Source of the DNA: a bacterium | Lineage (GTDB): Bacteria; Patescibacteriota; Gracilibacteria; UBA4473 | Length of the DNA stretch: 64,000 nucleotides | NCBI GenBank assembly: GCA_009995455.1 | Contig: JAACPJ010000001.1 | Location: 150,991-214,990, forward strand | Direction: 5' to 3' | Part shown: positions 19,768 through 30,892 of the stretch, piece after piece | Numbering within the stretch: position 1 is the first letter of the stretch | How the letters are laid out: each line of letters starts with the position of its first letter | Program-made: the position numbers and the translations under genes | Notes under the pieces: model-generated | Seen by the model: the letters and a program-made list of their open reading frames with translations, nothing else | Told to the model about the DNA's origin: nothing | Databases searched by the model: none

Positions 19768-19842
19768 TCCCGAGTAGCTCAGTGGTAGAGCAGTTGGCTG
19801 TTAACCAATTGGTCACTGGTTCGAGTCCAGTCTCGGGAGCCA
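19768..19842 (+). tRNA. tRNA-Asn (anticodon GTT), CCA encoded
   Basis: Cloverleaf read by hand. Acceptor TCCCGAG/CTCGGGA. D arm GCTC-AGTGGTA-GAGC. Anticodon arm GTTGG-CTGTTAA-CCAAT. Variable loop TGGTC. T arm ACTGG-TTCGAGT-CCAGT. Discriminator G, then CCA. Confidence 0.9.
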
Positions 19843-21653
19843 AATTCCTTTAAATGGTAGTTAATACCTTTTTTAGGGTTTCCTGGAATATGAGAAATAT
19901 CTGATTGAGCTAGTATATCAAAAGGTTTTAGCCATTCCATCTCAACACGATCCTTCCAAACTTTAAGGTTCGAACCTAGCGATAGTAGCAAAGCTTTTTT
20001 GGGTTCGAACTCAGCGTCAGCCATAATTGATTTAGCATCGCGCATGACTTGAAGTTTTTGCCAAGCTTGCTCAAACGATTCTTCGTGTTCTTCTTTTAAG
20101 GACTCTATTTCGCCTTGAGTTGTATAAATATCCTCTTCTACTCGAACGATAGTTTCTTCTGCTTCTTTTCTCTTAAGTTCGGATAACTCTGGAAGAAATT
20201 GCACTCTTTTTAAGTTGCTTTGTTCCTCTTCGAGTTTTTGGATTTTCTTTTTTAGTCTGTCTAGGCTGGCTTTGTAGATTTTTTCCTGCTCTAGCCAAAG
20301 CGTATAGAGCTGTCTCCGGAAGACTTCGAATAATCCGTCGGTAATTACGATCTTTGATAGCTCTTTTTCAAGATTTTTAGCTACCGCCTTCAAGGTTACT
20401 GAAGGTGAGGCTTTTCGATTTTTCCCCCAAACGGGCTTACCATTTTCTAACTTGTTAGCGAGAGGCGTAAATCTTTCAATTAAAGAGCACTTAGTCGTTT
20501 CATTAATCTCCTCGCTACATTGAGGGCATTTAGAGGTGTCGTTTTTAGTTTGCCAGCGATGTTGACAGCTAGAGCAAGTGAAACGGTTCTTAGACTCGAA
20601 TAAAAGCCGTGCGGGTCTCGTTTCGCCCTCTTTAGTGATAAATTCAAACTCTCCACTTACTGCAAACCCGGCTAGTAGTTCACCTAAGCCGACGGCTTTT
20701 TCATACTTAGCGTGCTTAAAGCCTAAACGTTGAAGCACCATTTGCGCCTGGTTGAACTCTTCTTCTGAAACCATCGTGGGATGATTCCCCTCAAGCCACA
20801 GCTCCTCTTGATCTGAAGGATCTATACTCTTAAGAAGACCTTGATAGTACTTATTTCTAAAACACTCTCGAACTTGAGAGTCGCTAATCACTCGCTCCCT
20901 TCCGCCGTAGGTGTGAACAATCCCAAGTTCTTTTTTTCGATTATATATCTCTTTAAGAGAATACTGACCGCTTATCAGCATTTCCCACAGTTCACGCATT
21001 TTTTCAAAATTTTCCGAGTGCGCCTCTACGGACTTTTCGCCTTTCTCTGTGCCTACATTCAAATAGCCGACTGGCGCCTTCCCGGTAGTCCCTCCTGCTG
21101 AACGCTTCCGATTCATCCCGGAAGCCGTGTTCTTTCCTCGCTGGTCGTTTTCAAATTTAGCGACGGACATAAAGAGCGAAAGCGTGAACTTATCAGTCGC
21201 AGAGTTCGTAAAAACCTTGTCTACCGTTCTTATTTCTTCGAGGTAAGACTTTTGCGGATTGCTTTGGTACGGATCGAGTAATTGAACGATTGTACCGGTA
21301 TCTTCGGCATTGCGAGAGAGCCGGGAGAGATCAGTACAAATTAGTACATCGAATTTACCTTTCTTGATTTGTTCGATCATATTCAAGAAAGCTTCCCGAT
21401 TAGCTTTCTTCCCGGCGTAGCCTCTGGCAGGAACTTTGGCAGAGCCATCTTCGCGAAATAAATCGACCCCCTCCTCGCCTTTCCAAATTAAACTCCTTTC
21501 TGAATATCCTTCGTTTACTTTTTTCTGGGCTTCAAAGTAGTTTCTAAGATCCTTTTCTTGGCGTTCTAAAGAGTATTTTTGCTTATTTTTACCAGTACTT
21601 TCATCGGAGTCCTTTGAGGACTTCCGCATATAGACTACACACCGAAGCGCCAT
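19779..21653 (-). CDS. large serine recombinase (integrase of the tRNA-Asn island)
   Basis: Resolvase catalytic domain VVYMRKSS...SLERQ...VLICTDLSRLSRN. Recombinase domain. Zn-ribbon FTCSSCQHRWQTKNDTSKCPQCSE. Long coiled coil. The last ~21 codons (GSRDWTRTSDQLVNSQLLYH) are the antisense of the tRNA-Asn 3' half. Confidence 0.9.
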   Translation of the reverse strand: MALRCVVYMRKSSKDSDESTGKNKQKYSLERQEKDLRNYFEAQKKVNEGYSERSLIWKGEEGVDLFREDGSAKVPARGYAGKKANREAFLNMIEQIKKGKFDVLICTDLSRLSRNAEDTGTIVQLLDPYQSNPQKSYLEEIRTVDKVFTNSATDKFTLSLFMSVAKFENDQRGKNTASGMNRKRSAGGTTGKAPVGYLNVGTEKGEKSVEAHSENFEKMRELWEMLISGQYSLKEIYNRKKELGIVHTYGGRERVISDSQVRECFRNKYYQGLLKSIDPSDQEELWLEGNHPTMVSEEEFNQAQMVLQRLGFKHAKYEKAVGLGELLAGFAVSGEFEFITKEGETRPARLLFESKNRFTCSSCQHRWQTKNDTSKCPQCSEEINETTKCSLIERFTPLANKLENGKPVWGKNRKASPSVTLKAVAKNLEKELSKIVITDGLFEVFRRQLYTLWLEQEKIYKASLDRLKKKIQKLEEEQSNLKRVQFLPELSELKRKEAEETIVRVEEDIYTTQGEIESLKEEHEESFEQAWQKLQVMRDAKSIMADAEFEPKKALLLSLGSNLKVWKDRVEMEWLKPFDILAQSDISHIPGNPKKGINYHLKEFGSRDWTRTSDQLVNSQLLYH

Positions 21654-21680
21654 ACTTTATTTTTTATAAAATCATCATGA

Positions 21681-21848
21681 TTATAAACACTTTCTTAAAA
21701 ATAAAGTAACCGCTTCTCCGGTTTGCCTTAATTCAGGTAGAGATAGCTGGATTTGGTAATCTTCCCTCAAAACTCTATCCAAGTCTTCGAGAAACTCTTC
21801 GTTGTTTTTGTAGGGAACTACATTTTTGGGGTACTGAAAACGCGACAT
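21681..21848 (-). CDS. small hypothetical protein upstream of the recombinase (possible accessory or directionality factor)
   Basis: 55 aa from MSRFQYPK (65 aa from the track start at 21878). Lies 27 nt upstream of the recombinase on the same strand. No recognised motif. Confidence 0.35.
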   Translation of the reverse strand: MSRFQYPKNVVPYKNNEEFLEDLDRVLREDYQIQLSLPELRQTGEAVTLFLRKCL

Positions 21849-22230
21849 GAGACAAATAATCCCAGGGGAGTGTCGCACAAAGTGCGCTCATTTATTTGTC
21901 ACAATCGTCCTTCACTGGGTTATTAAAGAAGGCGGTCGCAGCTACCTGTTTTAAAACGGATGAGTCAGGAAGCACCTCAATTCCGAAATCGATCTTAGAG
22001 GTACTTTATTTTTTTTCAAGTTTTAGGCGTTCGGGCGTAAGTGTTGCAAAAAGCAGTGTTTTAATAGAAAATATTTATGCACTTACCAATTCGATTTACC
22101 TTACGGGCTAATTTTTTAATTAGCGCGAATGGGGAACTAAAGATGGGGCAATTTCCGTCTAACAGTTCTCCGTAAGGGAAATTGGTAGGTGCAACGGTAA
22201 GTTGCCCCTTTTTTGTTTAACCCTGTTAAG

Positions 22231-22542
22231 ATGAAACTAGTTTATCCCGTAAAGTGTCCTACCTGCGAATACGAAGGCGAAAGTCTTCCACGAACACCCT
22301 TTAATTGGTTCTTAGCCGTCGTTCTACTGTTTTTAGGGATTATTCCGGGGGTTATCTATATCGCATTCGTAAAAACCCAGCAGAGCCGATTTAAATGCCC
22401 TCGCTGTAGTTCTCCTAGCTGCTACGCTACCGGCGAACCAAAACCGGCGCCAAAAGTCGAAAGGAAGCTTAACCGAACAGAGATGTTTATAGTCGCGATT
22501 CCGATTATTTTGATCATCTTAATGATCGCTTTAAATCAGTAG
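22231..22542 (+). CDS. small membrane protein with split zinc-ribbon (CPTC...CPRC)
   Basis: 103 aa from the ATG at 22231 (the track begins at a TTG at 22213). CxxC pairs flank the TM helix WFLAVVLLFLGIIPGVIYIAF; a second C-terminal TM is FIVAIPIILIILMIAL. Confidence 0.5.
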   Translation: MKLVYPVKCPTCEYEGESLPRTPFNWFLAVVLLFLGIIPGVIYIAFVKTQQSRFKCPRCSSPSCYATGEPKPAPKVERKLNRTEMFIVAIPIILIILMIALNQ

Positions 22543-22662
22543 AAAATCAGCCTCATCTTAGGGAAGTTTTTTTAGCTTAAACAAGCTTTCCTATAGCTTC
22601 GGATAATTCCGGAAAATTTTACGTTTCTTATAAGTTGAAAAAATTCCGGAGAGATTCTAAGT

Positions 22663-24612
22663 TTAGCTTTCTACAGACTCGAATAAATCATGAAAGCCAA
22701 TAGTTAAAGATTGTCTCTGTTCACCGCTTAAATCAAAGTCACTTCCAAACCAAAGGTAACAGCCAGTTATAATTGCGATAAATACCAAAAATCCAAACAT
22801 AATTTGAGGCGTTCTTTTTTTGTTATCTAAACGAGTAATGGCATAGATCAAGAATCCAAATATGCATAATGAGCATGCGAAAAAGACAGTAAACGCAACC
22901 GCCATTTTCAAGCTTTCAATTCCTTCGTAAAGCCTGATAGAGCTGGAAGAAAATATTACTAATGCGGAGAATATGGCAAGAACCTCTACGGTTCTCTTTA
23001 AGTTGCTTTTTTGCTCATCTCTTAAAGTTTCTCGAACTTCTTTAATATGATCTTTTTCATCTTCTAAAATTGACAGTTTATGTAGATTTTTCTCAATGTG
23101 TTGCAGATCAGTTTCAACAGTATGTCTAATAAAAGTAGAAAGTGAGAAAACTTTTGGACAAAAAGATAAATTAAATCCCGCAAAACAAGGGTATGTGAAT
23201 CTTCCCATTTCCATATAAAGTTGGCGCGCACGGTTTAATCTTTTTTCAGATTGCCTGATAACTTTTTCTGATTCGGCTAAGGTCTTATTTAAATTCTTTG
23301 CTTTAAGGTAGTAGTACACTCCAAGTTTATACTCTCTAAAGTAAGATGGATGGTTTGAATCGTTCTCATCGGTGTCATAAGTACTTTCGATCTTATCTTC
23401 GAGCTCCTTATTAGTTGAACCTTGGTAGTAGTGATCTATTAAAAAAGAAAGATGAAAATTCTCGATATATAGAATATTTTTCTCTCTAAATAGAAGATCA
23501 TGTTCGTTTTGAGTACTATTTTCGGATCGTATAAACTCAATGATATTCTGTATCAATTTATCTCCTTTGTCTGAATATCCTACAAAATCTTTTATGTATC
23601 TAGCTATGCAAATTGATTTTTCCCAGCCGAAGTCGGCTATGCTTTTTACCGATTCTTTTTTTAGAGCTTCAGACAATGAGGTTTTACTAAGCTCTCTTAA
23701 TAGTTGTTTTTTTGCATCTTTTTTTGAAAGCCCTTCAAAATAAATTTTTTTCTCAAGTTCATCAGCTACTTTATGAAAAAATGTCACTTCATAAAGGTCT
23801 AAACATTTAGGGGTGTTTTTAAGAAGTTCCTGAAAGCTTATCTCATCTTCTCTAGATGAATCAATTTCATGCTTCCATATTAGAAAATCTAAGAATTGTA
23901 TTAATTTTTGAGAGTCTGGAATGCTATTGAAAGTTTTTAACTTTGAACGTGTCTCTCTAAGATTTATTAGGTTTTCATAAAGCCCAATATGCTCTCTAGT
24001 ATCGGTAATAGTATTCATCTCAAAGCTCCATATCTTGATTAAAAAAGCCGTAAGAGCATCATGGCTTAATTCTTTTTTATTCATTCGGCTCTCCAAAATT
24101 TTATTTTTGGAAAAATTTAAAGTGTCATAGCCGTTGTTTGATAATATGCCTTTAATTTTTCTGACACTCCTAAAAACATCCTGAAGAAAGCCTAGGTAAG
24201 ACTTTAAATTATTTAGATCCTCTATATACTCTTGGGTTAATTTTTTCAATGAGTGTATTATTTTACTCGCCTCCTCTTCTGGTGTTATCTCCTCTTGTGA
24301 CTCTTCTTCGCCTTCTTCGCCATAGTCTTTTTCATTTTTAGCTTCGTAATTTTCCGCTACAGCAGCAACTGTTGCGAAAACTTCAATATCTTTCTCTTTA
24401 ATATCAAGTTTCTCCTCTAACTTAAGTAAAACTTTCTCAAATTTTTCTAGCCAAATTGAATTCCAAAATTGACCTTTACACAAAGAAGTAAAAAGTTTTT
24501 CACTTAAGCTAGGCATATCTGCTTTTAATGCTCTAAGAAGAGGGATTTGGTTATGTCCGTCTAAAATACTTTCAAGATTCTCTAGGAACTCATCAGATAT
24601 AGCATCGCTCAT
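22663..24612 (-). CDS. large K/E-rich helical protein with three C-terminal transmembrane helices (candidate toxin/effector)
   Basis: 649 aa. About 530 aa are soluble with no recognised family. TM segments follow: VLAIFSALVIFSSSS, MAVAFTVFFACSLCIFGFLIYAI, IMFGFLVFIAIITGCYLWFG. The start overlaps the upstream gene's stop by 20 nt. AT-rich. Confidence 0.6.
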   Translation of the reverse strand: MSDAISDEFLENLESILDGHNQIPLLRALKADMPSLSEKLFTSLCKGQFWNSIWLEKFEKVLLKLEEKLDIKEKDIEVFATVAAVAENYEAKNEKDYGEEGEEESQEEITPEEEASKIIHSLKKLTQEYIEDLNNLKSYLGFLQDVFRSVRKIKGILSNNGYDTLNFSKNKILESRMNKKELSHDALTAFLIKIWSFEMNTITDTREHIGLYENLINLRETRSKLKTFNSIPDSQKLIQFLDFLIWKHEIDSSREDEISFQELLKNTPKCLDLYEVTFFHKVADELEKKIYFEGLSKKDAKKQLLRELSKTSLSEALKKESVKSIADFGWEKSICIARYIKDFVGYSDKGDKLIQNIIEFIRSENSTQNEHDLLFREKNILYIENFHLSFLIDHYYQGSTNKELEDKIESTYDTDENDSNHPSYFREYKLGVYYYLKAKNLNKTLAESEKVIRQSEKRLNRARQLYMEMGRFTYPCFAGFNLSFCPKVFSLSTFIRHTVETDLQHIEKNLHKLSILEDEKDHIKEVRETLRDEQKSNLKRTVEVLAIFSALVIFSSSSIRLYEGIESLKMAVAFTVFFACSLCIFGFLIYAITRLDNKKRTPQIMFGFLVFIAIITGCYLWFGSDFDLSGEQRQSLTIGFHDLFESVES

Positions 24613-25105
24613 TTAATATCTCGTTAGTATCCATAGCACTTGCTCTTCTATTACTCTTTAGTGCTTCCATAAAAGGCTTTCGCCACGCTTCCCAACGATG
24701 AGAGACCTCTACTAGATAGTCTTCTTTTCTTCTAAGTAATTCGTTTTCATTACCTTTTAAACTAGATATTGCCTCTTTCAATAAAATAGTAACTTCATCA
24801 TCAGTACAACAATCTGGAGCGTTTCCAGAAACTCCAGACTCATGACATTCTTGCATGAAGCCTTTGTTAACCTTTAAGAATCCATATGAATCGTCCTCAA
24901 CTGGACCCTTGGGAAGGGCTACCCATTCATCGAAGGTGCTAAGTAATTTTTTTTCTAGAACACAGGTGAAAAATAAGAGCTTCATTATCTCTACGAAAGT
25001 AAGCTTGGGATAGGCTCTTTTGCCAGTATGTTCTTCAGCAACATCCTGATAACTATTGTTGAGAAGAACTAGAAAAGATTTAAAATAATCCTCCTTAGTT
25101 TGCAT
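24593..25105 (-). CDS. Panacea (DUF4065/SocA/GepA-like) domain protein, candidate antitoxin
   Basis: 170 aa. The core LTFVEIMKLLFFTCVLEKKLLSTFDEWVALPKGPVEDDSY parallels the DUF4065 pattern LT-x-LKLQKLLYF...F-x-AW-x-x-GPV-x-x-x-x-Y. Confidence 0.5.
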   Translation of the reverse strand: MQTKEDYFKSFLVLLNNSYQDVAEEHTGKRAYPKLTFVEIMKLLFFTCVLEKKLLSTFDEWVALPKGPVEDDSYGFLKVNKGFMQECHESGVSGNAPDCCTDDEVTILLKEAISSLKGNENELLRRKEDYLVEVSHRWEAWRKPFMEALKSNRRASAMDTNEILNERCYI

Positions 25106-25177
25106 GGTGATTTTTTTTATAATCTAAATATATACTTTATAATTTATATAGTAAACCGTTCTAAATTTTGACTGTTA

Positions 25178-26308
25178 TTAATGAGCTTCACTCAACCCTA
25201 CCGAGTTTGCCACGTAATCACAGATTGGCTTAAGTAGGGTTGAGAGGTCTTGATCAAAATCTTCCAGCAGAACCTCTGGGATAATTAGATTATCTCTTTC
25301 CACCGGATAAGTGTCATCGAAATCTCGTCCGCCGTTGTAAACTTCATGACCTTTTACGCCTAGGAGGCTTAAGGCGACCACAATAGGGCATTCAATCCCC
25401 AAATCTTTTTGAGTACCTAAATATCGCCTTACATGACCCTTCAGCCTTTCTGGAAGATCGTAAACCGGGAAACGATCTGGGCTTAAGTACGTCGAAGTTG
25501 CGGCTTCAATTATTCCGCTCCTAAATACCTGAACGTAGGTCGCGTGACTTTGGTCTTGCGCCTGACTGTAACTAGCGAAGCCTTCGATGTTTATCTTCCA
25601 AGTACAAGCTCCATTTCCCATCGGCTTAGGGTAATCTCCAGGAAAAGATTCGTGGCTCTTTAGCTCTAAATTCGGCGCGTTTGAAAAAGACTGAAGGGGA
25701 ATTAGATGTATAACAAATTTTGCCTCATTCCCCATTTTTACGGTCGCTTCATCGGCTAAAATTTTTGCAAGTCGGTCGGATCTAAACTGCTGAATTTTAT
25801 TTTCTAGCCCTTCCGAGTCTAAAAACAGTCTGCGGATCTCATAAACGTCCAGCTTTTGCTTCCCTGCCGAAGTCCTCGAATAGAACTTCCCGCTCTTAAG
25901 CATGTGCGGAGATGACCAACTAGCCGGAATTTTTAAAATCAAAACGGTCTTATCATCTATCAAAACTGGTTTTATGTCTATCGCTGGGATTCTCGGATCT
26001 ATTTCCGAAGTTATCAGTTGCTTTAGTCTTAAAACCTCTCGATCGGTGTCGTCCGACTCTATTCCGTGCAACGCGTACCGCGCTTCGCCTTCTGCAGGTT
26101 CCTTATTTTCTGATATACCAAAAATCAAATATCCGCCCGAAGCGTTTGCAAAAGAAGAAACTGCTGCTAAAAACCTTTGCTTTCCTTGATCTGTAGCTTC
26201 AGGTAAGTCGCGCTTGTATTCGAGCGTCTTACTTTCTGACGTCTGATTATCGATTAGGCGCTGGATAGTTCCTTGGTCGATTGAGGCAAACGGTTCGGTT
26301 ATTTCCAT
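25178..26308 (-). CDS. AlbA_2 (Schlafen-like) domain protein with unknown C-terminal domain
   Basis: The N-terminal ESKTLEYKRDLPE...FLAAVSSFANASGGYLIFGISE matches the AlbA_2 pattern E-x-x-x-LEFK...AFANT-x-GG-x-L-x-x-GV. Confidence 0.6.
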   Translation of the reverse strand: MEITEPFASIDQGTIQRLIDNQTSESKTLEYKRDLPEATDQGKQRFLAAVSSFANASGGYLIFGISENKEPAEGEARYALHGIESDDTDREVLRLKQLITSEIDPRIPAIDIKPVLIDDKTVLILKIPASWSSPHMLKSGKFYSRTSAGKQKLDVYEIRRLFLDSEGLENKIQQFRSDRLAKILADEATVKMGNEAKFVIHLIPLQSFSNAPNLELKSHESFPGDYPKPMGNGACTWKINIEGFASYSQAQDQSHATYVQVFRSGIIEAATSTYLSPDRFPVYDLPERLKGHVRRYLGTQKDLGIECPIVVALSLLGVKGHEVYNGGRDFDDTYPVERDNLIIPEVLLEDFDQDLSTLLKPICDYVANSVGLSEAH

Positions 26309-26450
26309 ACGAGTAAACTAGCAGATCCTTCCAACGTTTTCTATCAGCTTGGTTCTTTTCCGGGGAGGGATCTCTTACTAGAAACTCTAAGCCGAGGCTT
26401 TAATACGCGATAACTCCTCATTCCAAGTGCTGTGTAACTTGGTCTTCAAA

Positions 26451-26516
26451 GTCCCCCTGTTAGGCTTATACCCGTTAGATAAAATGGTTCGAACCACGAA
26501 AGTACTAGGGGAGCCA
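26451..26516 (+). repeat. degenerate tRNA-Asn-like remnant / att repeat
   Basis: 26508-26522 GGGGAGCCATTCCTT repeats the tRNA 3' end plus flank GGGAGCCAAATTCCTT (19835-19850). It is preceded by TGGTTCGAACCA (T-arm-like), and TCCCC at 26452 could pair with GGGGA. Too short and mismatched to be functional. Confidence 0.4.
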
Positions 26517-26855
26517 TTCCTTCGTTTCAGCGAAACGAAGCAGGACATCAAACGGTTCACGCAGGTCATAGACCAGCTTTCCGTTTTTTAGTCGTAGGTT
26601 CGAAGTCACTAAAGTGAGTAATTGCTGTTTGCGAGGCTCTGAATCTTCACGAAATAACAGGCCTGCTTTTTGGGCTAGGTCTAGAACGGCTAAACTAGAG
26701 TTTAAGAAGGTTTCATCTTTGCGGCTGGCGTCGGTCAGTTCTTCTTGTAGATCTTGCTCTTCAGACTTAAAGCGAGTGACAAGTTTGTCATACTCATCGG
26801 TTGTAATACACCAATTTCTACACAGACTTAGAAGCTCTAACAGTTGAATAAAACC
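26505..26855 (-). pseudogene. C-terminal remnant of a second large serine recombinase (no start codon, N-terminal ~500 aa missing)
   Basis: Open frame of 117 codons with no Met. It ends ...DSEPRKQQLLTLVTSNLRLKNGKLVYDLREPFDVLLRFAETKEWLP*, which aligns with the intact recombinase tail ...EFEPKKALLLSLGSNLKVWKDRVEMEWLKPFDILAQ...KEFGS. The stop lies at the tRNA-like repeat, as in the intact copy. Confidence 0.65.
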
Positions 26856-26949
26856 ATTAATGCCTCACTTGGTTATAAATGAATAAATAACAGCTAATCG
26901 GTTATGCATTAGAGAAACTCATAAGATTTTATCTGAAAAGAAGCAGTTT

Positions 26950-27753
26950 TTAACCTCTTGATTCAAGCGGGATAAAACATTGTAGGTAAATCATAAGTCC
27001 GTTTGGTAGATCAAATGTCATTGGCAAGCCGCTGGCATTACTTTTGTGCCATATACCTAACCCCGTTGATTTACTCATGGTTAATGTTTGTATGCCCCCG
27101 TACCATAAGTCCTGTGCGATGATAGTTTTATCGTTGTTTTTTAAAATTTTCCACGCTTCCCCACTGGTTGCACCACCACCAACGGCCGCAGAGGTTAGAA
27201 AAGTTATAGTATCATTAGGATTTATGATAAAAGATAGCTCGTCTGTACCTGGTTTCAAATTGGATTCAACGGCTGAATAATCTAAGTATTTACCTTCATT
27301 GCTACTTGGCCTAGCTCCATTTTTTTCAAAAAAATAGGCGGTTTCTTGCGCTTTACACGGAAAACTTTGACCGATCATTTGTTCGGGAAACAGTTTTTTC
27401 TTTTCAGATTCTGTGAAAAATTCATCTACATCTGGGAACTCTTCTTTTAATTCTACAAGAATTTCTGAATAGCTCATAAAACTATTATTTTTCAAATCCT
27501 CAGCAAATTCATAGGGACTTACGTAATCTTCTTGAAGCTCTATTGGGACTGTTTTTTTCTCCTGAATCGATTTAGCCATAGCTAAATCATTTTCAAGTGT
27601 TTCGTTTTTTTCTTCTAGTTGCTTAATTTCGTCATATAGTGCTTCCTCAAATGAGGAAACTTTTGGGGTGTTTGTATTTAACGTCGATGAATTTTGGTCT
27701 TCACAGCCAGAAATAATTGTCACAGTCACGAATAATATAAATATTCTTTTCAT
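26950..27753 (-). CDS. lipoprotein, unknown function
   Basis: Lipobox MKRIFILFVTVTIISGC from the ATG at 27753 (the track ORF extends to 27798). Short coiled coil, then a globular domain. Confidence 0.55.
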   Translation of the reverse strand: MKRIFILFVTVTIISGCEDQNSSTLNTNTPKVSSFEEALYDEIKQLEEKNETLENDLAMAKSIQEKKTVPIELQEDYVSPYEFAEDLKNNSFMSYSEILVELKEEFPDVDEFFTESEKKKLFPEQMIGQSFPCKAQETAYFFEKNGARPSSNEGKYLDYSAVESNLKPGTDELSFIINPNDTITFLTSAAVGGGATSGEAWKILKNNDKTIIAQDLWYGGIQTLTMSKSTGLGIWHKSNASGLPMTFDLPNGLMIYLQCFIPLESRG

Positions 27754-27839
27754 ATGTTTTAGTTTAACGGCTTTTTTTGTTATCAGCAATCTGAACAAAG
27801 GCTAGAGAACAAAGTTAAATCTACTTATAAGACAAGGCT

Positions 27840-27953
27840 ATGAGTGTTTTTTATACTAAGTTATGTGTGTTTTTGTTAGTATTGGTGCTTGTTGCTCAGC
27901 CATTTCTATTATCCTTCCAAATCTGTTTACTTGCTTGTGATACCGAGTTCTAA
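27840..27953 (+). CDS. possible small hydrophobic peptide (37 aa)
   Basis: ATG at 27840 preceded by AAGG. Translates MSVFYTKLCVFLLVLVLVAQPFLLSFQICLLACDTEF*. An intrinsic terminator follows 30 nt downstream. Below the ORF-track size cut-off. Confidence 0.3.
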   Translation: MSVFYTKLCVFLLVLVLVAQPFLLSFQICLLACDTEF

Positions 27954-27983
27954 ATAGAAACGGAAGCTTGAGCCAACAAAAAT

Positions 27984-28011
27984 GCATAGATCTTACGATC
28001 TGTGCTTTTTT
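27984..28011 (+). terminator. intrinsic terminator
   Basis: GCATAGATC-TTAC-GATCTGTGC (9-bp stem with one G:U) followed by TTTTTT. Confidence 0.6.
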
Positions 28012-28082
28012 GTTTAATTCAAAAGTGCGCCAAACCAAAATTTAATTAACTTAATCAAATCTTCATATATGCTTAGGTCATT

Positions 28083-28421
28083 ATGAAAACGCTTGAAGAA
28101 CTAACGCAGCTGCTGATCAAATTTAGAAATGACCGAGATTGGTCTCAATTTCATAATTCCAAAGATCTCGCTTTAGCTCTTTCAATTGAAGCTGCAGAGC
28201 TAAATGAGTTGTTTTTGTGGAAGTCAGAAAAAGAGGCCGAAAATATAAACAAAGTGAGGCTCGGCGAAGAGTTAGCCGATGTTTTGGCTTATGCCTTACT
28301 TTTGGCTGAAAAAAATGATTTAAATATTGAAGAAATTGTGAGAAATAAAATTAATTTGAATGCGGGAAAATACCCCATTCACAAAGCCAAAGGGACTTCT
28401 GAAAAATATACTGAACTATGA
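28083..28421 (+). CDS. MazG-like nucleotide pyrophosphohydrolase (DCTPP1/YpjD-type all-alpha NTP-PPase)
   Basis: 112 aa. FRNDRDWSQFHNSKDLALALSIEAAELNELF and EELADVLAYALLLA carry the EExxE/ExxD metal motifs of this family. Confidence 0.8.
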   Translation: MKTLEELTQLLIKFRNDRDWSQFHNSKDLALALSIEAAELNELFLWKSEKEAENINKVRLGEELADVLAYALLLAEKNDLNIEEIVRNKINLNAGKYPIHKAKGTSEKYTEL

Positions 28422-29980
28422 TAGAAGTAACTACTTTTGATTTTAGGGCTGACACTTTGTTGAAATTAAAAAAATTTCACTACGGAACCGATTGGCCGGC
28501 GGTTTATTTTTTAGAGAACGGCAAGGAAGCTTACATTGGTGAGGCGGTAAATGTGCTTCGTCGTGGTAAGGAGCATTTAAAAAATCCTGATCGGCAGAGG
28601 CTAAAAAAAATTCACATCTTGTCAGACTTTGAGTTTAACAAATCAGCGTCTTTGGATATTGAGTCTTGGTTGATTCAGTACTTATCGGCGGACAACAAAT
28701 TTAAGTTACAAAATGGGAATGGTGGTTTAAAAAATCACAGCTATTTTGATCGTCCAAAATATGAAGCGAAATTTGAGCAATTGTGGGAAGACTTAAGAGT
28801 CGCTGGTTTAGCGCAAAAAACTTTATTAGAACTAAGAAATTCTGACTTGTTTAAATATTCGCCCTACAAAGCTTTAAATGAAGATCAAATAGAGGTAGTG
28901 GGTGTCTTGATGGCAGAAATTAAGGCAAAAAAAATCAGCACGCATTTAGTGCATGGCGGAGCCGGAACCGGTAAAACGATTTTGGCGACGTACTTGATGA
29001 AGCAATTAATTGGGGATCAACATTTGGATTTAAAGATTGCTTTAGTGGTTCCAATGACGTCTTTACGAAAAACGCTAAGGCAAGTTTTTAGAAGTATTGA
29101 AGGTTTAAATTCCAATATGATACTTGGTCCTTCCGATGTATTTAAAGCGGATTACGATTTGTTAATTGTGGATGAAGCGCATCGACTTAAAAAAAGAAGA
29201 AATATTTCTAACTACGGTTCTTTTGATATTAATAATAAAAAATTAGGACTTGATAATAACGGAACGGAGCTTGATTGGATTATGCGAAATTCTAAGCATC
29301 AAATATTTTTTTATGATGAGCATCAATCGGTTAAACCATCTGATATAGGACCAAATAAGTTTAAAGAGTTAGATGCCATTGAGCATAATCTGGCACAACA
29401 AATGCGCGTTAAGGGTGGGGATCAATACATTAATTTCATCCATAGTTTATTTTCTTCACATCCAACCTTATATAAAAATCACGAAGACTATGATGTCCGA
29501 TTCTGTGAAAAGCTCGAACCGATGATTGGTTTAATTAAAGAGAAAGAAAAAGAGCATTCATTGGCTCGTATGGTGGCGGGTTATGCTTGGGATTGGGCGT
29601 CGAAAAAAGATCCAAACGCTCATGACATAGAGTTAGACGGTTTAAAATTAAAATGGAATAGTTGCATAGAAGGCTGGGTGAATTCGAAAAACGCAATAAA
29701 TGAAATTGGGTGTATTCATACGGTTCAGGGATATGACTTAAATTATGTGGGAGTCATTATTGGACCGGAACTTTCTTATGATTTTGAAACGAAAGAATTT
29801 ATTTTTAAACGAAAGCTTTATAAGGACAAAAACGGTCATGTAGGCGTTCGAGATGAGGAAGAGCTAAAAAAATATATCATCAATATTTATAAAACACTTC
29901 TAACCAGAGGAATCCGTGGAACTTATGTGTACGTCGTTGATAAAAATTTAAGAGAATATTTGAGGGATTACTTTTCATAG
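28418..29980 (+). CDS. GIY-YIG nuclease domain fused to a DUF2075 (Schlafen group-III-type SF1 helicase/ATPase) domain
   Basis: N-terminus VYFLENGKEAYIGEAVNVLRRGKEH...SLDIESW is GIY-YIG-like. Walker A GGAGTGKT and Walker B LLIVDEAHRL are present. C-terminal GCIHTVQGYDLNYVGVIIG is typical of DUF2075. The ATGA overlap with the MazG-like gene indicates translational coupling. Confidence 0.7.
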   Translation: MIEVTTFDFRADTLLKLKKFHYGTDWPAVYFLENGKEAYIGEAVNVLRRGKEHLKNPDRQRLKKIHILSDFEFNKSASLDIESWLIQYLSADNKFKLQNGNGGLKNHSYFDRPKYEAKFEQLWEDLRVAGLAQKTLLELRNSDLFKYSPYKALNEDQIEVVGVLMAEIKAKKISTHLVHGGAGTGKTILATYLMKQLIGDQHLDLKIALVVPMTSLRKTLRQVFRSIEGLNSNMILGPSDVFKADYDLLIVDEAHRLKKRRNISNYGSFDINNKKLGLDNNGTELDWIMRNSKHQIFFYDEHQSVKPSDIGPNKFKELDAIEHNLAQQMRVKGGDQYINFIHSLFSSHPTLYKNHEDYDVRFCEKLEPMIGLIKEKEKEHSLARMVAGYAWDWASKKDPNAHDIELDGLKLKWNSCIEGWVNSKNAINEIGCIHTVQGYDLNYVGVIIGPELSYDFETKEFIFKRKLYKDKNGHVGVRDEEELKKYIINIYKTLLTRGIRGTYVYVVDKNLREYLRDYFS

Positions 29981-30130
29981 ATTATATCTTTCCTCACCTT
30001 TCCTCTTGCCATTTTCAAAAAAACCCCTATGGTTGGTTTCCAATAGCGTCGAGTTTTAGCCGGGTTTAATTTAAAAAGTAAATTCCTATCACCATCACTA
30101 GCGGAATTTATTTTTTAACCATTTCAAACT

Positions 30131-30325
30131 ATGAAAGGTACTATCAAAAACGTATTGAACGGATTTGGATTCATTTCTCCAGAAGACGGAGGAAAAGACA
30201 TCTTCTTCCACGCAAACGATCTTGAAGGTGTAACGTTTGATGAACTACAACCAGGTAACGAAGTTACTTACGAAGTTGGTTCTTCTGACAAAGGCCCTAA
30301 AGCCGAACAAGTGGCTCTTGTATAA
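30131..30325 (+). CDS. cold-shock protein (CspA family)
   Basis: 64 aa. RNP1/RNP2-like [17 protein letters not shown]. Confidence 0.9.
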
Positions 30326-30350
30326 TTACAATCCACACTTCAAAACTAAA

Positions 30351-30381
30351 AGCCGTTCCCTTGGGAGCGGCTTTTTTTTTG
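30351..30381 (+). terminator. intrinsic terminator of csp
   Basis: GCCGTTCCC...GGGAGCGGC stem followed by T9. Confidence 0.8.
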
Positions 30382-30466: not shown

Positions 30467-30892
30467 TTATTTCAGCGGTTTAATAAAAATAAAACCCAGC
30501 AAGCGTTTAAAACCCGTTTTAAAATAAAACTTATGGGCTTTAGTGCGCCACGGCGACGAGAATAACAAAACATAATCGTGTTTTTGTTTCCGGGCCTTGG
30601 CCTCAATTTTATTCAGAGTTTTACGACCAAAGCCTTTCCCTTGTGCCTCGGGGGAGATGGCCAAATATTTTAAATAAAACCATTTACGTTTAAAAATCAT
30701 CAACGAGGTAAATGCGGCCAGCCCGAGGATTTTAGGCGACTTTTTTTTGTGTTTGATGGCGTAAAACCGGTGTTTCCCTTGAACAAACTTAAAGAGTTTA
30801 AAAATTAACCAAAACCCCAGAAAAGGAAAAAGCACCCAAAAGATTTTGGCGGCCTGTGGGTGTTGTTTTGGTTTTAAAGGTTTTATTTTCAT
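30467..30892 (-). CDS. small GNAT-family acetyltransferase-like protein with hydrophobic N-terminus
   Basis: Motif A LAISPEAQGKGFGRKTLNKIEAKARK. N-terminal FWVLFPFLGFWLIF. Short (141 aa) for a GNAT. Confidence 0.5.
   Translation of the reverse strand: MKIKPLKPKQHPQAAKIFWVLFPFLGFWLIFKLFKFVQGKHRFYAIKHKKKSPKILGLAAFTSLMIFKRKWFYLKYLAISPEAQGKGFGRKTLNKIEAKARKQKHDYVLLFSSPWRTKAHKFYFKTGFKRLLGFIFIKPLK

What the first reader, a model, noticed from the sequence alone, without database searches (positions are those of the whole stretch)
19768..30100. Composite integrative island at tRNA-Asn: intact large serine recombinase plus a decayed second copy abutting a repeat of the tRNA 3' end
tRNA-Asn(GTT) at 19768-19842 is overlapped over its 3' 64 nt by the stop-proximal codons of a 624-aa large serine recombinase on the opposite strand.
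About 6.7 kb to the right, GGGGAGCCATTCCTT (26508-26522) repeats the tRNA end and junction GGGAGCCAAATTCCTT (19835-19850).
That repeat is abutted in the same geometry by a 117-codon, start-less open frame. Its sequence aligns with the intact recombinase tail: EPRKQQLLTLVTSNLRLKNGKLVYDLREPFDVL versus EPKKALLLSLGSNLKVWKDRVEMEWLKPFDIL.
The simplest reading is two successive integrations into the same tRNA. The newer element displaced the older one, whose recombinase has since been truncated.
The whole stretch is visibly more AT-rich than its flanks and carries defence-like cargo. I could not locate the right-hand boundary: only an 8-mer AAATTCCT at about 30078 recurs.
Basis: partly seen in the sequence, partly recalled or inferred. 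Interest (0 to 1): 0.6.

Follow-up and report, generated by a model that had tools for sequence, protein, structure and literature searches.

The report
Stacked serine-recombinase islands at tRNA-Asn
Two mobile DNA islands, one intact and one decayed, were inserted one after the other at the last bases of an asparagine tRNA gene of an uncultured ultra-small (CPR) bacterium by large serine recombinases whose own genes span the recombination site, so that insertion swaps the enzyme's tail.

Summary
About 10.1 kb (19843 to about 29985) is inserted between tRNA-Asn(GTT) and a cold-shock gene that lie 165-345 bp apart in relatives. It has three modules.

- E1 (19843-26516) is an intact element with a 624-aa large serine recombinase (LSR1) and defence-like cargo.
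- E2 (26517-27975) is the remnant of a different LSR lineage that also targets tRNA-Asn.
- A separate MazG-like plus Nhi-like cassette (about 28015-29985) lies beyond the ancestral tRNA trailer and terminator (27976-28014).

The missing right end is a third copy of the tRNA end (GAGCCA, 27970-27975). A related metagenome contig carries tRNA-Asn joined directly to the E2-type tail, exactly the join 19842|26517. This shows E2 came first and E1 second.

New points:
- The LSR1 reading frame crosses attP. Its last 42 codons lie at the far end of E1 (26390-26516, minus strand). They carry a motif shared with four other integrated relatives and two unintegrated ones.
- The element-side arm carries the tRNA T-loop motif GGTTCG 5-6 bp further out than in the tRNA, as the structural LSR model predicts.

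The closest published precedent is the Dehalococcoides ssrA islands (DsiB).

The parts
19768..19842 (+). tRNA-Asn(GTT). This is the chromosomal (B) half of the attachment site. The crossover lies within its last 6-8 nt (GGGAGCCA, 19835-19842).
   Evidence: ARAGORN and Rfam at 73 bits. The tRNA is identical in L188.
19779..21653 (-). LSR1 as encoded in the integrated state (624 aa). Codons from 19843 leftward on the map are antisense tRNA (the last 21 aa). The element-encoded part is 19843-21653.
   Evidence: Pfam and PHROGs hits. The catalytic motifs Y-x-R-K-S-S and D-L-S-R-L-S-R-N are conserved with G004. There are 36 homologues, most with antisense-tRNA tails.
21681..21878 (-). Small ORF (55-65 aa) directly upstream of LSR1. 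It is conserved in six LSR1-type elements. It is a candidate accessory or directionality factor; its function is not shown.
   Evidence: Alignment with motif YKN.EEFL..L..VLREDYGI.L. No Pfam, PADLOC or PHROG hit.
22138..22218 (+). Stable hairpin followed by a U-run, in the E1 intergenic region. It is 80% identical to a segment of the G004 element, where it has the opposite orientation relative to the LSR.
   Evidence: blastn. Fold -38.1 kcal/mol, z -4.1. No Rfam family. Single copy in the genome.
22213..22542 (+). 109-aa zinc-ribbon membrane protein (E1 cargo).
   Evidence: Weak LITAF-like zinc-ribbon hit, 0.0028.
22663..26308 (-). E1 cargo operon of three genes: a 649-aa protein with C-terminal membrane segments, a 170-aa protein with a weak Panacea/SocA-like hit, and a 376-aa AlbA_2/Schlafen-domain protein. 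It looks defence-like or toxin-antitoxin-like but is not assigned to a system.
   Evidence: Pfam AlbA_2 3e-19. Panacea hit only at 0.044. PADLOC gives only PDC-S50 at 3e-4.
26387..26516 (-). Detached 3' end of the LSR1 gene: 42 codons plus stop (GSPSTFVVRTILSNGYKPNRGTLKTKLHSTWNEELSRIKASA*). It is in frame with LSR1 only when 26516 is joined to 19843, that is, in the excised (attP) form.
   Evidence: Join model. The same motif is found in four other integrated elements and in two contiguous, unintegrated genes (P0004, P0006).
26486..26516 (+). P arm of E1 at attR1 (junction J2): GGTTCGAACCACGAAAGTACTAGGGGAGCCA. The T-loop-like GGTTCG lies 31 nt from the CCA end, against 25 nt in the tRNA.
   Evidence: The pattern occurs only once in the window. 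All seven LSR1-type members show the same -31 spacing.
26505..26864 (-). Remnant of LSR2: the last 119 codons plus stop of a different, tRNA-Asn-targeting LSR lineage. It abuts junction J2.
   Evidence: 63-67% identity to the C-termini of 520-aa LSRs in G046, G057 and G058, all abutting tRNA-Asn. G003 carries a remnant. L188 matches at 94/99 nt.
26950..27753 (-). 267-aa predicted secreted or lipoprotein-like protein inside the E2 remnant. Function unknown.
   Evidence: ORF and gene call. No family hit.
27945..27975 (+). P arm of E2 and third copy of the tRNA end (GAGCCA, 27970-27975). This is attR2 (junction J3), the right end of the recombinase-built array.
   Evidence: It carries AGTTCT at -30, a two-mismatch version of the motif.
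27976..28014 (+). Ancestral tRNA-Asn trailer with an intrinsic terminator hairpin. This is the original B' side.
   Evidence: 90% identity over 42 nt to the sequence directly 3' of tRNA-Asn in the empty-site relative G001. Inverted repeat I19.
28083..29980 (+). Separate two-gene cassette: a MazG-like pyrophosphohydrolase (112 aa) and a 520-aa Schlafen-group-3/DUF2075 helicase with Nhi/AbiO-like matches. It is absent from the congeners compared and has no recombinase or att repeat.
   Evidence: Pfam. PADLOC Nhi 4e-14 and AbiO 6e-14. Absent in G001 and L219.
30131..30325 (+). Cold-shock protein gene. This is the native right neighbour of tRNA-Asn.
   Evidence: Pfam CSD 1e-19. It lies 165-345 bp after tRNA-Asn in G001, G005 and G008.

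Best explanation
The 3' end of tRNA-Asn(GTT) in this Peregrinibacteria-like CPR genome is a recombination hot spot used by at least two lineages of large serine recombinases.

Order of events:
1. An LSR2-type element (E2) integrated first, by crossover within the last 6 nt of the tRNA (GAGCCA). It later lost all of its recombinase gene except the last 119 codons.
2. An LSR1-type element (E1, 6,674 bp) then integrated at the same tRNA end, by crossover within GGGAGCCA. This pushed E2 away from the tRNA.
3. A third, unrelated two-gene defence-like cassette sits further right, beyond the original tRNA trailer.

Mechanism (shown by sequence comparison):
- attP lies inside the LSR1 reading frame. 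The free element encodes a 646-aa enzyme.
- Integration moves its last 42 codons 6.7 kb away, to the far end of the element. They are replaced by 21 codons read from the antisense tRNA.
- The element-side P arm imitates the tRNA end. It has the same terminal GGGAGCCA plus the T-loop motif GGTTCG placed 6 bp further out.

Inferred, not shown:
- GGTTCG is the zinc-ribbon-domain motif and the acceptor/CCA end is the recombinase-domain motif.
- The tRNA half-site dominates recognition, which would explain why E1 could enter a site whose right half was already E2 DNA.
- E1 can still excise.
For: Insertion:
- tRNA-Asn and the cold-shock gene are adjacent in G001, G005 and G008.
- The G001 trailer matches window 27970-28011 at 90%.

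Order of events:
- L188 has tRNA-Asn joined directly to the E2-type tail, equal to the join 19842|26517. All 5 nt differences are synonymous in the LSR2 frame.
- L219 has a single E1-type element at the same locus.

Two lineages:
- The LSR2 fragment is 63-67% identical to 520-aa LSRs at tRNA-Asn, against 39% to LSR1 over 33 aa.
- In the tree, the full-length relatives of the LSR2 fragment group with tRNA-Arg enzymes with 100/100 support.

Split gene:
- Joining the P and P' arms extends the ORF in frame in the window, G004, L218, L219 and L220.
- The tails align without gaps with the contiguous genes P0004 and P0006, whose contigs carry no tRNA.
- Conserved residues use different codons (Arg: CGT, AGG, CGA, CGC), which points to selection on the protein.

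P-arm motif:
- GGTTCG (at most 1 mismatch) lies at -30 or -31 in 5 of 6 arms from three lineages, and at -31 in all 7 LSR1-type members. The background rate is 0.0074 per arm.
- This fits the 5-bp shift of the zinc-ribbon-domain motif between attP and attB reported by Rutherford et al. 2013 (PMC3783163).

Mobility of the family:
- Near-identical LSRs occur in different genera, for example G000-C14 and G047.
- Cargo varies between elements: OLD/GajA-like plus GHKL ATPase in G004, SIR2-HerA plus relaxase plus T4CP in L215.

Composition.
Against: - No excised circle or repaired site was seen. All public contigs that were read (24 per look-up) carry the integrated arrangement at 99.98-100% identity. 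No attP or empty-site contig exists in the assembly.
- The 8-mer repeat is not significant on its own.
- The E2 P arm has a two-mismatch version of the motif.
- A third tRNA-Asn LSR lineage (G022, G047C6) lacks the shifted motif, so the rule is not universal.
- The tail is predicted with low confidence (pLDDT 31-57), so its role is unknown.
- No relaxase, T4CP or phage gene is present in E1 itself, so its route of transfer is unexplained.
Confidence: 0.85

Rival explanations
1. In-situ tandem duplication: the second recombinase segment is a decayed duplicate of LSR1 created by local duplication, not a second integration.
For: The geometry is the same and both tails share the short sequence GAGCCA...TTCCTT. 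The direct alignment between them is weak.
Against: - The fragment is far closer to a different LSR lineage (63-67% identity) than to LSR1 (13/33).
- L188 and G003 carry the E2-type tail at tRNA-Asn without any LSR1.
- The cargo of E1 and E2 is unrelated.
Confidence: 0.03
2. The stretch is ancestral and was deleted in relatives. The tRNA association would then be incidental.
For: Only a few congeners are available, and G003 and G004 have rearranged synteny around tRNA-Asn.
Against: - Five different occupancy states occur at the same locus: empty, remnant, E2-type, E1-type and stacked.
- The joins are exact, at the tRNA end.
- GC is low.
- The ancestral trailer is preserved after junction J3.
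- The same LSR types sit at tRNA-Asn in other genera.
Confidence: 0.03
3. E1 is a fixed, no longer mobile island. The conserved 'tail' at its far end reflects DNA-level constraints (att arm, promoter of the cargo operon) rather than a functional protein segment.
For: - All contigs are integrated and near-identical across samples.
- Part of the tail conservation (V-R-T) is the GGTTCG att motif read as codons.
- AF2 gives no confident fold for the tail.
Against: - The conserved H-T-T-W-x-E-E...I-K block lies 90-120 nt from the core, beyond any LSR half-site.
- It has invariant spacing and synonymous codon differences in seven sequences.
- The detached frame is uninterrupted in all five integrated elements.
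- Two relatives carry it as one contiguous gene.
Confidence: 0.15
4. The crossover lies deeper in the tRNA (for example in the T-loop, as in Dehalococcoides ssrA islands), and the element supplies a replacement tRNA 3' end.
For: This is the usual design of tRNA-targeting islands. The P arm does look like a degenerate tRNA 3' half. 19-20-nt exact tRNA-end repeats exist near other LSR islands, in G047C6, G047C8 and own contig C14.
Against: - Identity between the tRNA and junctions J2 and J3 stops after 8 and 6 nt. The T-loop-like motif is out of register by 6 nt.
- L188 and the window have identical tRNAs although only the window carries E1.
Confidence: 0.05

Closest known systems
Dehalococcoides ssrA-specific genomic islands with the serine integrase DsiB (McMurdie et al. 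2011, PMC3146451; read)
   Same: - A large serine recombinase sits at attL and converges on a tRNA-like gene.
- The recombinase ORF runs into the antisense RNA gene, so its stop codon depends on integration state.
- Islands form tandem arrays at one site.
- The elements look mobilizable rather than self-transmissible.
- The authors already suggested that the gene may be complete only on the circle.
   Different: - The target there is tmRNA, with a 20-bp direct repeat and a crossover in the T-loop. Here the target is the CCA end of tRNA-Asn, with a 6-8 bp core.
- The DsiB module includes a second small serine recombinase (DsiA), ParB and Mom. Here there is only a conserved 55-70 aa ORF.
- In that paper the C-terminal part was described as divergent. 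Here the detached tail carries a conserved motif shared with unintegrated relatives.
Myxophage Mx8 IntP/IntX
   Same: attP lies within the integrase gene. Integration at a tRNA gene changes the C-terminal coding region of the integrase.
   Different: It is a tyrosine recombinase on a true phage, with a different catalytic mechanism and different att architecture.
Phage-type serine integrases (A118/LI, phiC31, Bxb1, SPbeta SprA) and the Rutherford/Van Duyne att-site model (PMC3783163)
   Same: - The domain order is the same: catalytic domain, recombinase domain, zinc ribbon with coiled coil.
- att sites are short with a tiny common core.
- An outer motif lies about 5 bp further from the centre in attP than in attB.
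   Different: - These enzymes are very divergent in sequence. The only PDB hit is the TnpX N-domain at 3e-4.
- The target is a tRNA end rather than a protein-coding gene.
- attP lies inside the enzyme's own ORF.
- The elements are small cargo islands, not phages. No structural genes were found, and no relatives occur in IMG/VR.
SSV1-type archaeal integrases (reviewed in PMC8371274)
   Same: attP lies inside the int gene. Integration into a tRNA gene partitions the gene.
   Different: They are tyrosine recombinases of archaeal viruses. The gene is split near the middle and inactivated; here only the last 42 or so codons are exchanged.
Tandem accretion of islands at tRNA genes by tyrosine integrases, such as CIME/ICE accretion and P4-like islands (established knowledge)
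   Same: Repeated use of one tRNA 3' end. The newest element lies next to the tRNA. Older elements decay into recombinase-less remnants flanked by att sites.
   Different: The recombinase family differs. Those islands have long direct repeats that rebuild the tRNA; here the core is 6-8 bp.

Membership tests
Large serine recombinase (serine integrase) | N-terminal resolvase-type catalytic domain with the serine nucleophile and the conserved R/D-R-L-x-R residues | tested here: met
   Pfam Resolvase 3e-19. Y8-x-R10-K-S12-S13 and D108-L-S-R-L-S-R-N115 are invariant between LSR1 and G004 and nearly so in 22 homologues.
Large serine recombinase (serine integrase) | Recombinase domain followed by a zinc-ribbon domain with an embedded coiled coil | tested here: met
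   Pfam Recombinase 3e-7 and zinc-ribbon hits. Cys pairs are conserved. The AF2 model of homologue P0004 shows two long helices, 416-464 and 469-517.
Large serine recombinase (serine integrase) | Short att sites with a small common core, and an outer recognition motif about 5 bp further out in attP than in attB | tested here: met
   The cores are 6-8 bp. GGTTCG lies at -25 in the tRNA and at -30 or -31 in P arms. The model is taken from PMC3783163. Protein-DNA contacts are inferred, not shown.
Large serine recombinase (serine integrase) | Catalyses attP x attB integration, and excision with a directionality factor | not testable with these tools
   No reads were available. Only integrated contigs were found.
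tRNA-targeting integrative genomic island | Present or absent at a conserved chromosomal site, with exact joins at the tRNA | tested here: met
   Empty, E2-only, E1-only and stacked states were all seen.
tRNA-targeting integrative genomic island | Deviating base composition | tested here: met
   GC 0.378, the 1.2th percentile of same-size genome windows. The LSR module itself is at the genome average (0.417).
Integrative mobilizable/conjugative element | Relaxase, oriT or coupling protein | tested here: not met
   None is present in E1. The unintegrated relative L215 does carry a relaxase (PF03432) and a T4CP.
Prophage or phage satellite | Structural, packaging or replication genes of phage type | tested here: not met
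   PHROGs hits only the integrase plus generic helicase and pyrophosphatase families. No relatives were found in IMG/VR.
Known anti-phage defence systems (cargo) | Confident match to PADLOC system components | tested here: inconclusive
   E1 cargo gives only PDC-S50 at 3e-4 and a weak Panacea hit at 0.044. The helicase of the third module matches Nhi/AbiO at 4e-14 over part of its length.
Dehalococcoides-type ssrA-GI (DsiB module) | Six-gene integration module (DsiB, DsiA, RecF-like, ParB, Mom with embedded tRNA) and a 20-bp repeat from a T-loop crossover | tested here: not met
   E1 has none of these accessory genes. The core is 8 bp at the CCA end. The features of the family are taken from PMC3146451.

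The most novel reading that the evidence does not exclude
The tail exchange works as a state sensor. Only the excised circle encodes the full 646-aa enzyme, with the conserved G..VRT..(20 aa)..HTTW.EE..IK tail. Several tails end in ssrA-like ASA, VAA or IAV. The integrated copy makes a tRNA-tailed enzyme with different activity or stability. This would give the element a built-in control of directionality or commitment without a classical repressor.

In addition, the universal T-loop GGTTCG would serve as a constant anchor for the zinc-ribbon domain, while the acceptor end sets specificity. This would let the family hop between tRNA species. Asn, Arg, Gln, Trp, Gly and Thr targets are all seen in this bacterial family. 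It would also let an element re-enter occupied sites and so build stacks like this one.
Probability: 0.3. Interest if true: 0.75.

Novelty: new variant of a known kind. Interest (0 to 1): 0.55.

Why it matters
- **Mobile elements of CPR bacteria.** Mobile elements of CPR/Patescibacteria are poorly charted. This locus shows in one place how they are built and layered. The five occupancy states found at the same locus make it a natural experiment.
- **An unusual use of serine integrases.** The recombinases are serine integrases with tRNA ends as targets, and their attachment site lies inside their own gene. That gives a simple, testable route to state-dependent enzyme forms. McMurdie et al. raised this question for the Dehalococcoides ssrA islands in 2011 and left it open.
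- **A check on the structural model.** The shifted T-loop motif is a sequence-level test of the structural attP/attB model, in enzymes very distant from those crystallised.
- **Annotation.** Most database entries for this family end in 13-30 residues translated from antisense tRNA, so their annotated C-termini are artefacts of integration.
- **Tools.** Serine integrases are sought as genome-engineering tools. A lineage that reads a nearly universal RNA-gene motif could be of interest.

Tried and rejected
- **Junctions in the assembly.** I looked for attP, for the E1-less site and for the fully empty site in the genome assembly. None was present.
- **Exact attP 30-mer in IMG/VR.** No match.
- **LSR1 relatives in public collections.** Genome contigs gave one distant hit. 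Metagenome contigs gave none through back-translated patterns. IMG/VR gave none. The protein search succeeded where these failed.
- **Flanking proteins as bait for empty-site strains.** All 24 contigs read for each protein had the same integrated arrangement.
Rejected, because it is conserved in the empty-site relative.
- **Internal inverted spare attP.** Earlier notes of this scan report one for other families. None was found in E1.
- **attR of the Gln, Trp and second Arg lineages.** Not found within the DNA fetched.
- **Structure of the tail.** The AF2 model has low confidence there, so no fold search was made.
- **PDB sequence search.** Only a marginal hit to the TnpX N-domain.
- **Rfam.** Nothing in the island beyond the tRNA.
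- **Literature.** Nine of the ten allowed library searches were run, seven of them on this design. They found no description of it in CPR bacteria. The only published precedents found were DsiB (PMC3146451) and tyrosine-integrase cases.

Full report
**1. Observation**

ARAGORN and Rfam place tRNA-Asn(GTT) at 19768-19842 on the + strand. The minus-strand ORF 19779-21653 (624 aa) overlaps the tRNA by 64 nt.

The ORF is a large serine recombinase (LSR1). It has a Resolvase domain (3e-19), a Recombinase domain (3e-7), a double CxxC ribbon and a PHROG integrase match at 5e-42. The catalytic motifs Y-x-R-K-S-S and D-L-S-R-L-S-R-N are conserved with its nearest genomic relative.

The open frame next to the second one is 119 codons (26508-26864, stop at 26505-07).

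Two cautions apply:
- GGGAGCCA alone occurs 3 times in the window against 1.3 expected, so it is not significant by itself.
- The direct alignment of the fragment to LSR1 is weak: 13/33 identical, E=0.002.

The stretch is AT-rich. Its GC is 0.378 against a genome mean of 0.410 (sd 0.013), the 1.2th percentile. The flanks are 0.43-0.44. The recombinase module itself is at the genome average.

**2. The stretch is an insertion, and its ends**

The genome is a 1.32-Mb, 23-contig assembly. Homologues of its recombinase are labelled Peregrinibacteria or Patescibacteria.

In the same-genus genome G001 a 3-kb contig carries, in order: the left-flank gene, tRNA-Asn, 165 bp of spacer, the cold-shock gene (87% identical to window 30004-30378), and the ITPase gene. 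G005 and G008, from other genera of the family, also have the cold-shock gene 234-345 bp after tRNA-Asn. So everything from 19843 to about 29985 is inserted.

The 42 nt that follow the tRNA in G001 are its trailer and terminator. They match window 27970-28011 at 90%. This gives a third copy of the tRNA end. The three junctions are:
- J1: ...CTCGGGAGCCA|AATTCCTT (core 19835-42)
- J2: ...CTAGGGGAGCCA|TTCCTTCG (core 26509-16)
- J3: ...AGCTTGAGCCA|ACAAAAATGCATAG (core 27970-75)

The modules are therefore:
- E1 = 19843-26516
- E2 = 26517-27975
- ancestral trailer and terminator = 27976-28014
- a third module, about 28015-29985

**3. Order of events**

A pattern scan of metagenome contigs for the E2-type junction returned contig L188 (Ga0307932_1002572). 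Its left flank is syntenic with the window at about 70% nt identity and its tRNA-Asn is identical. The tRNA is followed directly by TTCCTTCGTTTCAGCG..., the E2-type tail, at 94/99 nt until the contig ends.

Deleting 19843-26516 from the window reproduces this join exactly. The five differences in the tail are all synonymous in the LSR2 frame.

Two further states were seen. G003 carries a shorter E2-type remnant at its tRNA-Asn (72% nt). Contig L219 carries a single E1-type element at the same locus, between the tRNA and the cold-shock gene.

So five occupancy states of one site are on record.

**4. The 'second copy' is a different lineage**

The fragment is 63-67% identical to the C-termini of 520-aa ORFs in G046, G057 and G058. 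These have Resolvase, Recombinase and zinc-ribbon domains, and each abuts tRNA-Asn in the same geometry.

In a maximum-likelihood tree these group with tRNA-Arg(TCG)-targeting enzymes with 100/100 support. LSR1 and its G004 relative group with a third tRNA-Asn lineage.

Within this bacterial family most LSRs of 490 aa or more overlap the 3' end of a tRNA gene convergently. The tRNAs are Asn-GTT, Arg-TCG, Gln-CTG, Gln-TTG, Trp-CCA and Gly-CCC. A partial LSR open frame (228 aa) also sits next to Thr-GGT. A clade of 420-470 aa enzymes does not overlap tRNAs.

The window's own genome has a second such island at tRNA-Arg on contig C14.

**5. Attachment-site anatomy**

I located attR for six elements of three lineages. 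For five of them, and for all seven LSR1-type members examined later, the element-side P arm ends in the same bases as the tRNA. It also carries GGTTCG (at most 1 mismatch) starting 30-31 nt from the CCA end, whereas the T-loop GGTTCG of the tRNA starts at 25 nt. The decayed E2 arm has AGTTCT at -30.

The background rate of such a match is 0.0074 per arm. The full pattern occurs once in the 64-kb window, at J2.

An outer motif displaced by about 5 bp between attP and attB is what Rutherford et al. (2013) derived from the LI integrase-attP structure for the zinc-ribbon domain (PMC3783163).

I infer three things from this, none of them shown:
- The T-loop motif is read by the zinc-ribbon domain, and the acceptor/CCA end by the recombinase domain.
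- The crossover lies inside the shared GAGCCA.
- The right half of attB matters little, because E1 entered a site whose right half was E2 DNA rather than the A-rich trailer found beside other E1-type elements.

A third tRNA-Asn lineage (G022, G047C6) lacks the shifted motif.

**6. The recombinase gene spans attP**

Joining the P arm to the P' arm, as in the excised circle, extends the LSR1 frame from 624 to 646 aa. Twenty-one antisense-tRNA codons are replaced by GSPSTFVVRTILSNGYKPNRGTLKTKLHSTWNEELSRIKASA*, encoded at 26516-26387 on the minus strand.

The same operation on G004, L218, L219 and L220 gives in-frame tails with the same motif.

A protein search with the 646-aa form found 36 homologues at 34-59% identity. 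Of the 21 sequences fetched, most end in antisense-tRNA peptides (...RTDDQLVNSQLLYH...WLPRLDSNQ). P0004 and P0006 cover the query to its end.

The genes for P0004 and P0006 are contiguous. No tRNA is found in the three loci fetched around them. Each holds a complete attP: GGTTCG-N15-GGGGATGCCA|A and GGTTCG-N16-GGGCCACCA|A.

The seven tails align without a gap, in the pattern G.....-RT-(20 residues)-W-x-[ED]-E. Conserved residues use different codons (Arg CGT, AGG, CGA, CGC; His CAC, CAT), which indicates selection on the protein. V-R-T itself is the GGTTCG motif read as codons. The H-T-T-W-x-E-E block is 90-120 nt from the core, beyond an att half-site.

An AlphaFold model of P0004 is confident for the body (mean pLDDT 80.5). 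It is not confident for the tail, which shows two short helices at pLDDT 31-57. What the tail does is unknown. The tRNA-Arg lineage shows the same architecture.

**7. What the elements are**

E1 carries these features:
- LSR1
- a conserved 55-65 aa ORF directly upstream, present in six elements with no family match
- a structured hairpin
- a small zinc-ribbon membrane protein
- an operon of a 649-aa membrane-anchored protein, a 170-aa protein with a marginal Panacea-like hit (0.044), and an AlbA_2/Schlafen protein

There are no phage structural genes, relaxase or coupling protein in E1.

Relatives carry other cargo:
- G004: an OLD/GajA-like nuclease plus a GHKL ATPase
- the unintegrated L215: SIR2-HerA plus a relaxase and a T4SS coupling protein
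- L218: Abi_2, PIN and DUF488
- the C14 island: RloB plus AAA_21

These look like small cargo-swapping integrative elements, some of them mobilizable. How E1 itself moves between cells is unexplained.

Near-identical LSRs in different genera argue for recent horizontal spread of the family.

The third module (MazG-like plus a DUF2075 helicase with Nhi/AbiO-like matches at 4e-14) lies outside the att-bounded array. It is absent from G001 and L219.

**8. Is E1 active?**

This could not be tested. The public contigs that were read (24 per look-up, out of 26 to 80 indexed blocks) that carry LSR1 or its flanking proteins are 99.98-100% identical to the window and integrated. The assembly has no junction contig.

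Several features fit an element that still cycles: the intact catalytic motifs, the intact P arm, and the uninterrupted detached tail in all five integrated members. This remains inference.

**9. Comparison with what is known**

- **Closest published case.** This is the set of Dehalococcoides ssrA islands. A CcrB-like serine integrase (DsiB) sits at attL and its ORF runs into the antisense tmRNA gene. The islands stack in tandem, and the authors suggest that the gene may be complete only on the circle (PMC3146451). They differ in target, crossover position (T-loop, 20-bp repeat) and accessory genes. Those authors found the overlapping part divergent.
- **Tyrosine integrases.** For these the design is established in Mx8 IntP (from memory) and SSV1-type integrases (PMC8371274).
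- **Literature search.** Searches of the held library found no description of this design in CPR bacteria, nor of the shifted T-loop motif. That is not proof of absence.
- **Earlier notes of this scan.** They report the same design at many tRNA genes across Patescibacteria. I reached the split-gene reading before consulting them, and they are not independent evidence.

**10. Verdict**

As a composite tRNA island it is a familiar kind of object.

The recombinase system behind it is a variant of known kinds with clear, testable features:
- attP lies inside the gene.
- Integration exchanges the enzyme's tail.
- The P arm imitates the tRNA end with a 5-6 bp motif shift.
- The system can re-enter an occupied site.

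Noticed in passing
Own genome contig C14:15427-23082 (outside the window; L069 covers C14:21176-24511): A second LSR island of about 7.6 kb sits at tRNA-Arg(TCG). Its LSR is 492 aa when integrated and 529 aa in the joined model. The cargo includes an RloB-like protein plus an AAA_21 ATPase (AbiL-like). The LSR is almost identical to one in another genus (G047; tree branch lengths 0.005 and 0.017), which points to recent horizontal transfer. About 190 bp beyond its attR lies a further degenerate 20-nt copy of the tRNA end.
   Followed up: partly
window 22138-22218: A stable hairpin with a U-run (-38 kcal/mol, z -4.1) is 80% identical to a segment of the G004 element, where it has the opposite orientation relative to the recombinase gene. 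There is no Rfam match and only one copy in the genome. It could be a bidirectional terminator, a small RNA or an invertible piece.
   Followed up: partly
window 26449: Two public contigs from different samples and different assemblers (L089 from SPAdes, L091 from MEGAHIT) both end exactly at window position 26449. That is 67 nt inside E1 from junction J2, within the detached tail-coding segment. It may reflect population heterogeneity at this end of E1. It cannot be resolved without reads.
   Followed up: no
window 21681-21878 and relatives (L045:11848-12060, L219:4318-4524, L218:9805-9984, L215:8334-8507, L220:5231-5407): A conserved 55-70 aa protein (YKN.EEFL..L..VLREDYGI.L....L...G.....FL) lies immediately upstream of every LSR1-type recombinase examined. 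It matches no family. It is a candidate directionality or accessory factor.
   Followed up: partly
window 28083-29980: A translationally coupled pair of genes, MazG-like and GIY-YIG-like/DUF2075 (Nhi/AbiO-like), is inserted between the tRNA terminator and the cold-shock gene promoter region. It has no recombinase and no att repeat, and it is absent from G001 and L219.
   Followed up: partly
window 30467-30892: The GNAT acetyltransferase gene between the cold-shock gene and the ITPase gene has no counterpart in the congener G001, where these two genes are adjacent. This is another small indel at the same locus.
   Followed up: no
L215 (Logan ERR14788039 contig, 16.7 kb, GC 0.54): An unintegrated LSR1-type element carries a relaxase (PF03432), a T4SS coupling protein, a SIR2-HerA pair, and VWA, PP2C and protein-kinase genes. 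It sits in a much more GC-rich background than the window genome. No terminal overlap was found, so circularity is not shown.
   Followed up: partly
L050 (G002:C84) about 190 bp after tRNA-Asn; L219 about 180 bp after its attR: Extra partial copies of the tRNA-Asn 3' end (AATCCAGTCTCGGGAGC in G002; CTGGGAGCCA plus a terminator-like hairpin in L219) lie downstream of otherwise empty or singly occupied sites. They look like scars of still older integrations.
   Followed up: no
Protein database entries P0002-P0037: Most database sequences of this LSR family end in 13-30 residues translated from antisense tRNA, in two reading frames (...IRTDDQLVNSQLLYH and ...WLPRLDSNQ). Their annotated C-termini are therefore by-products of integration.
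   Followed up: yes
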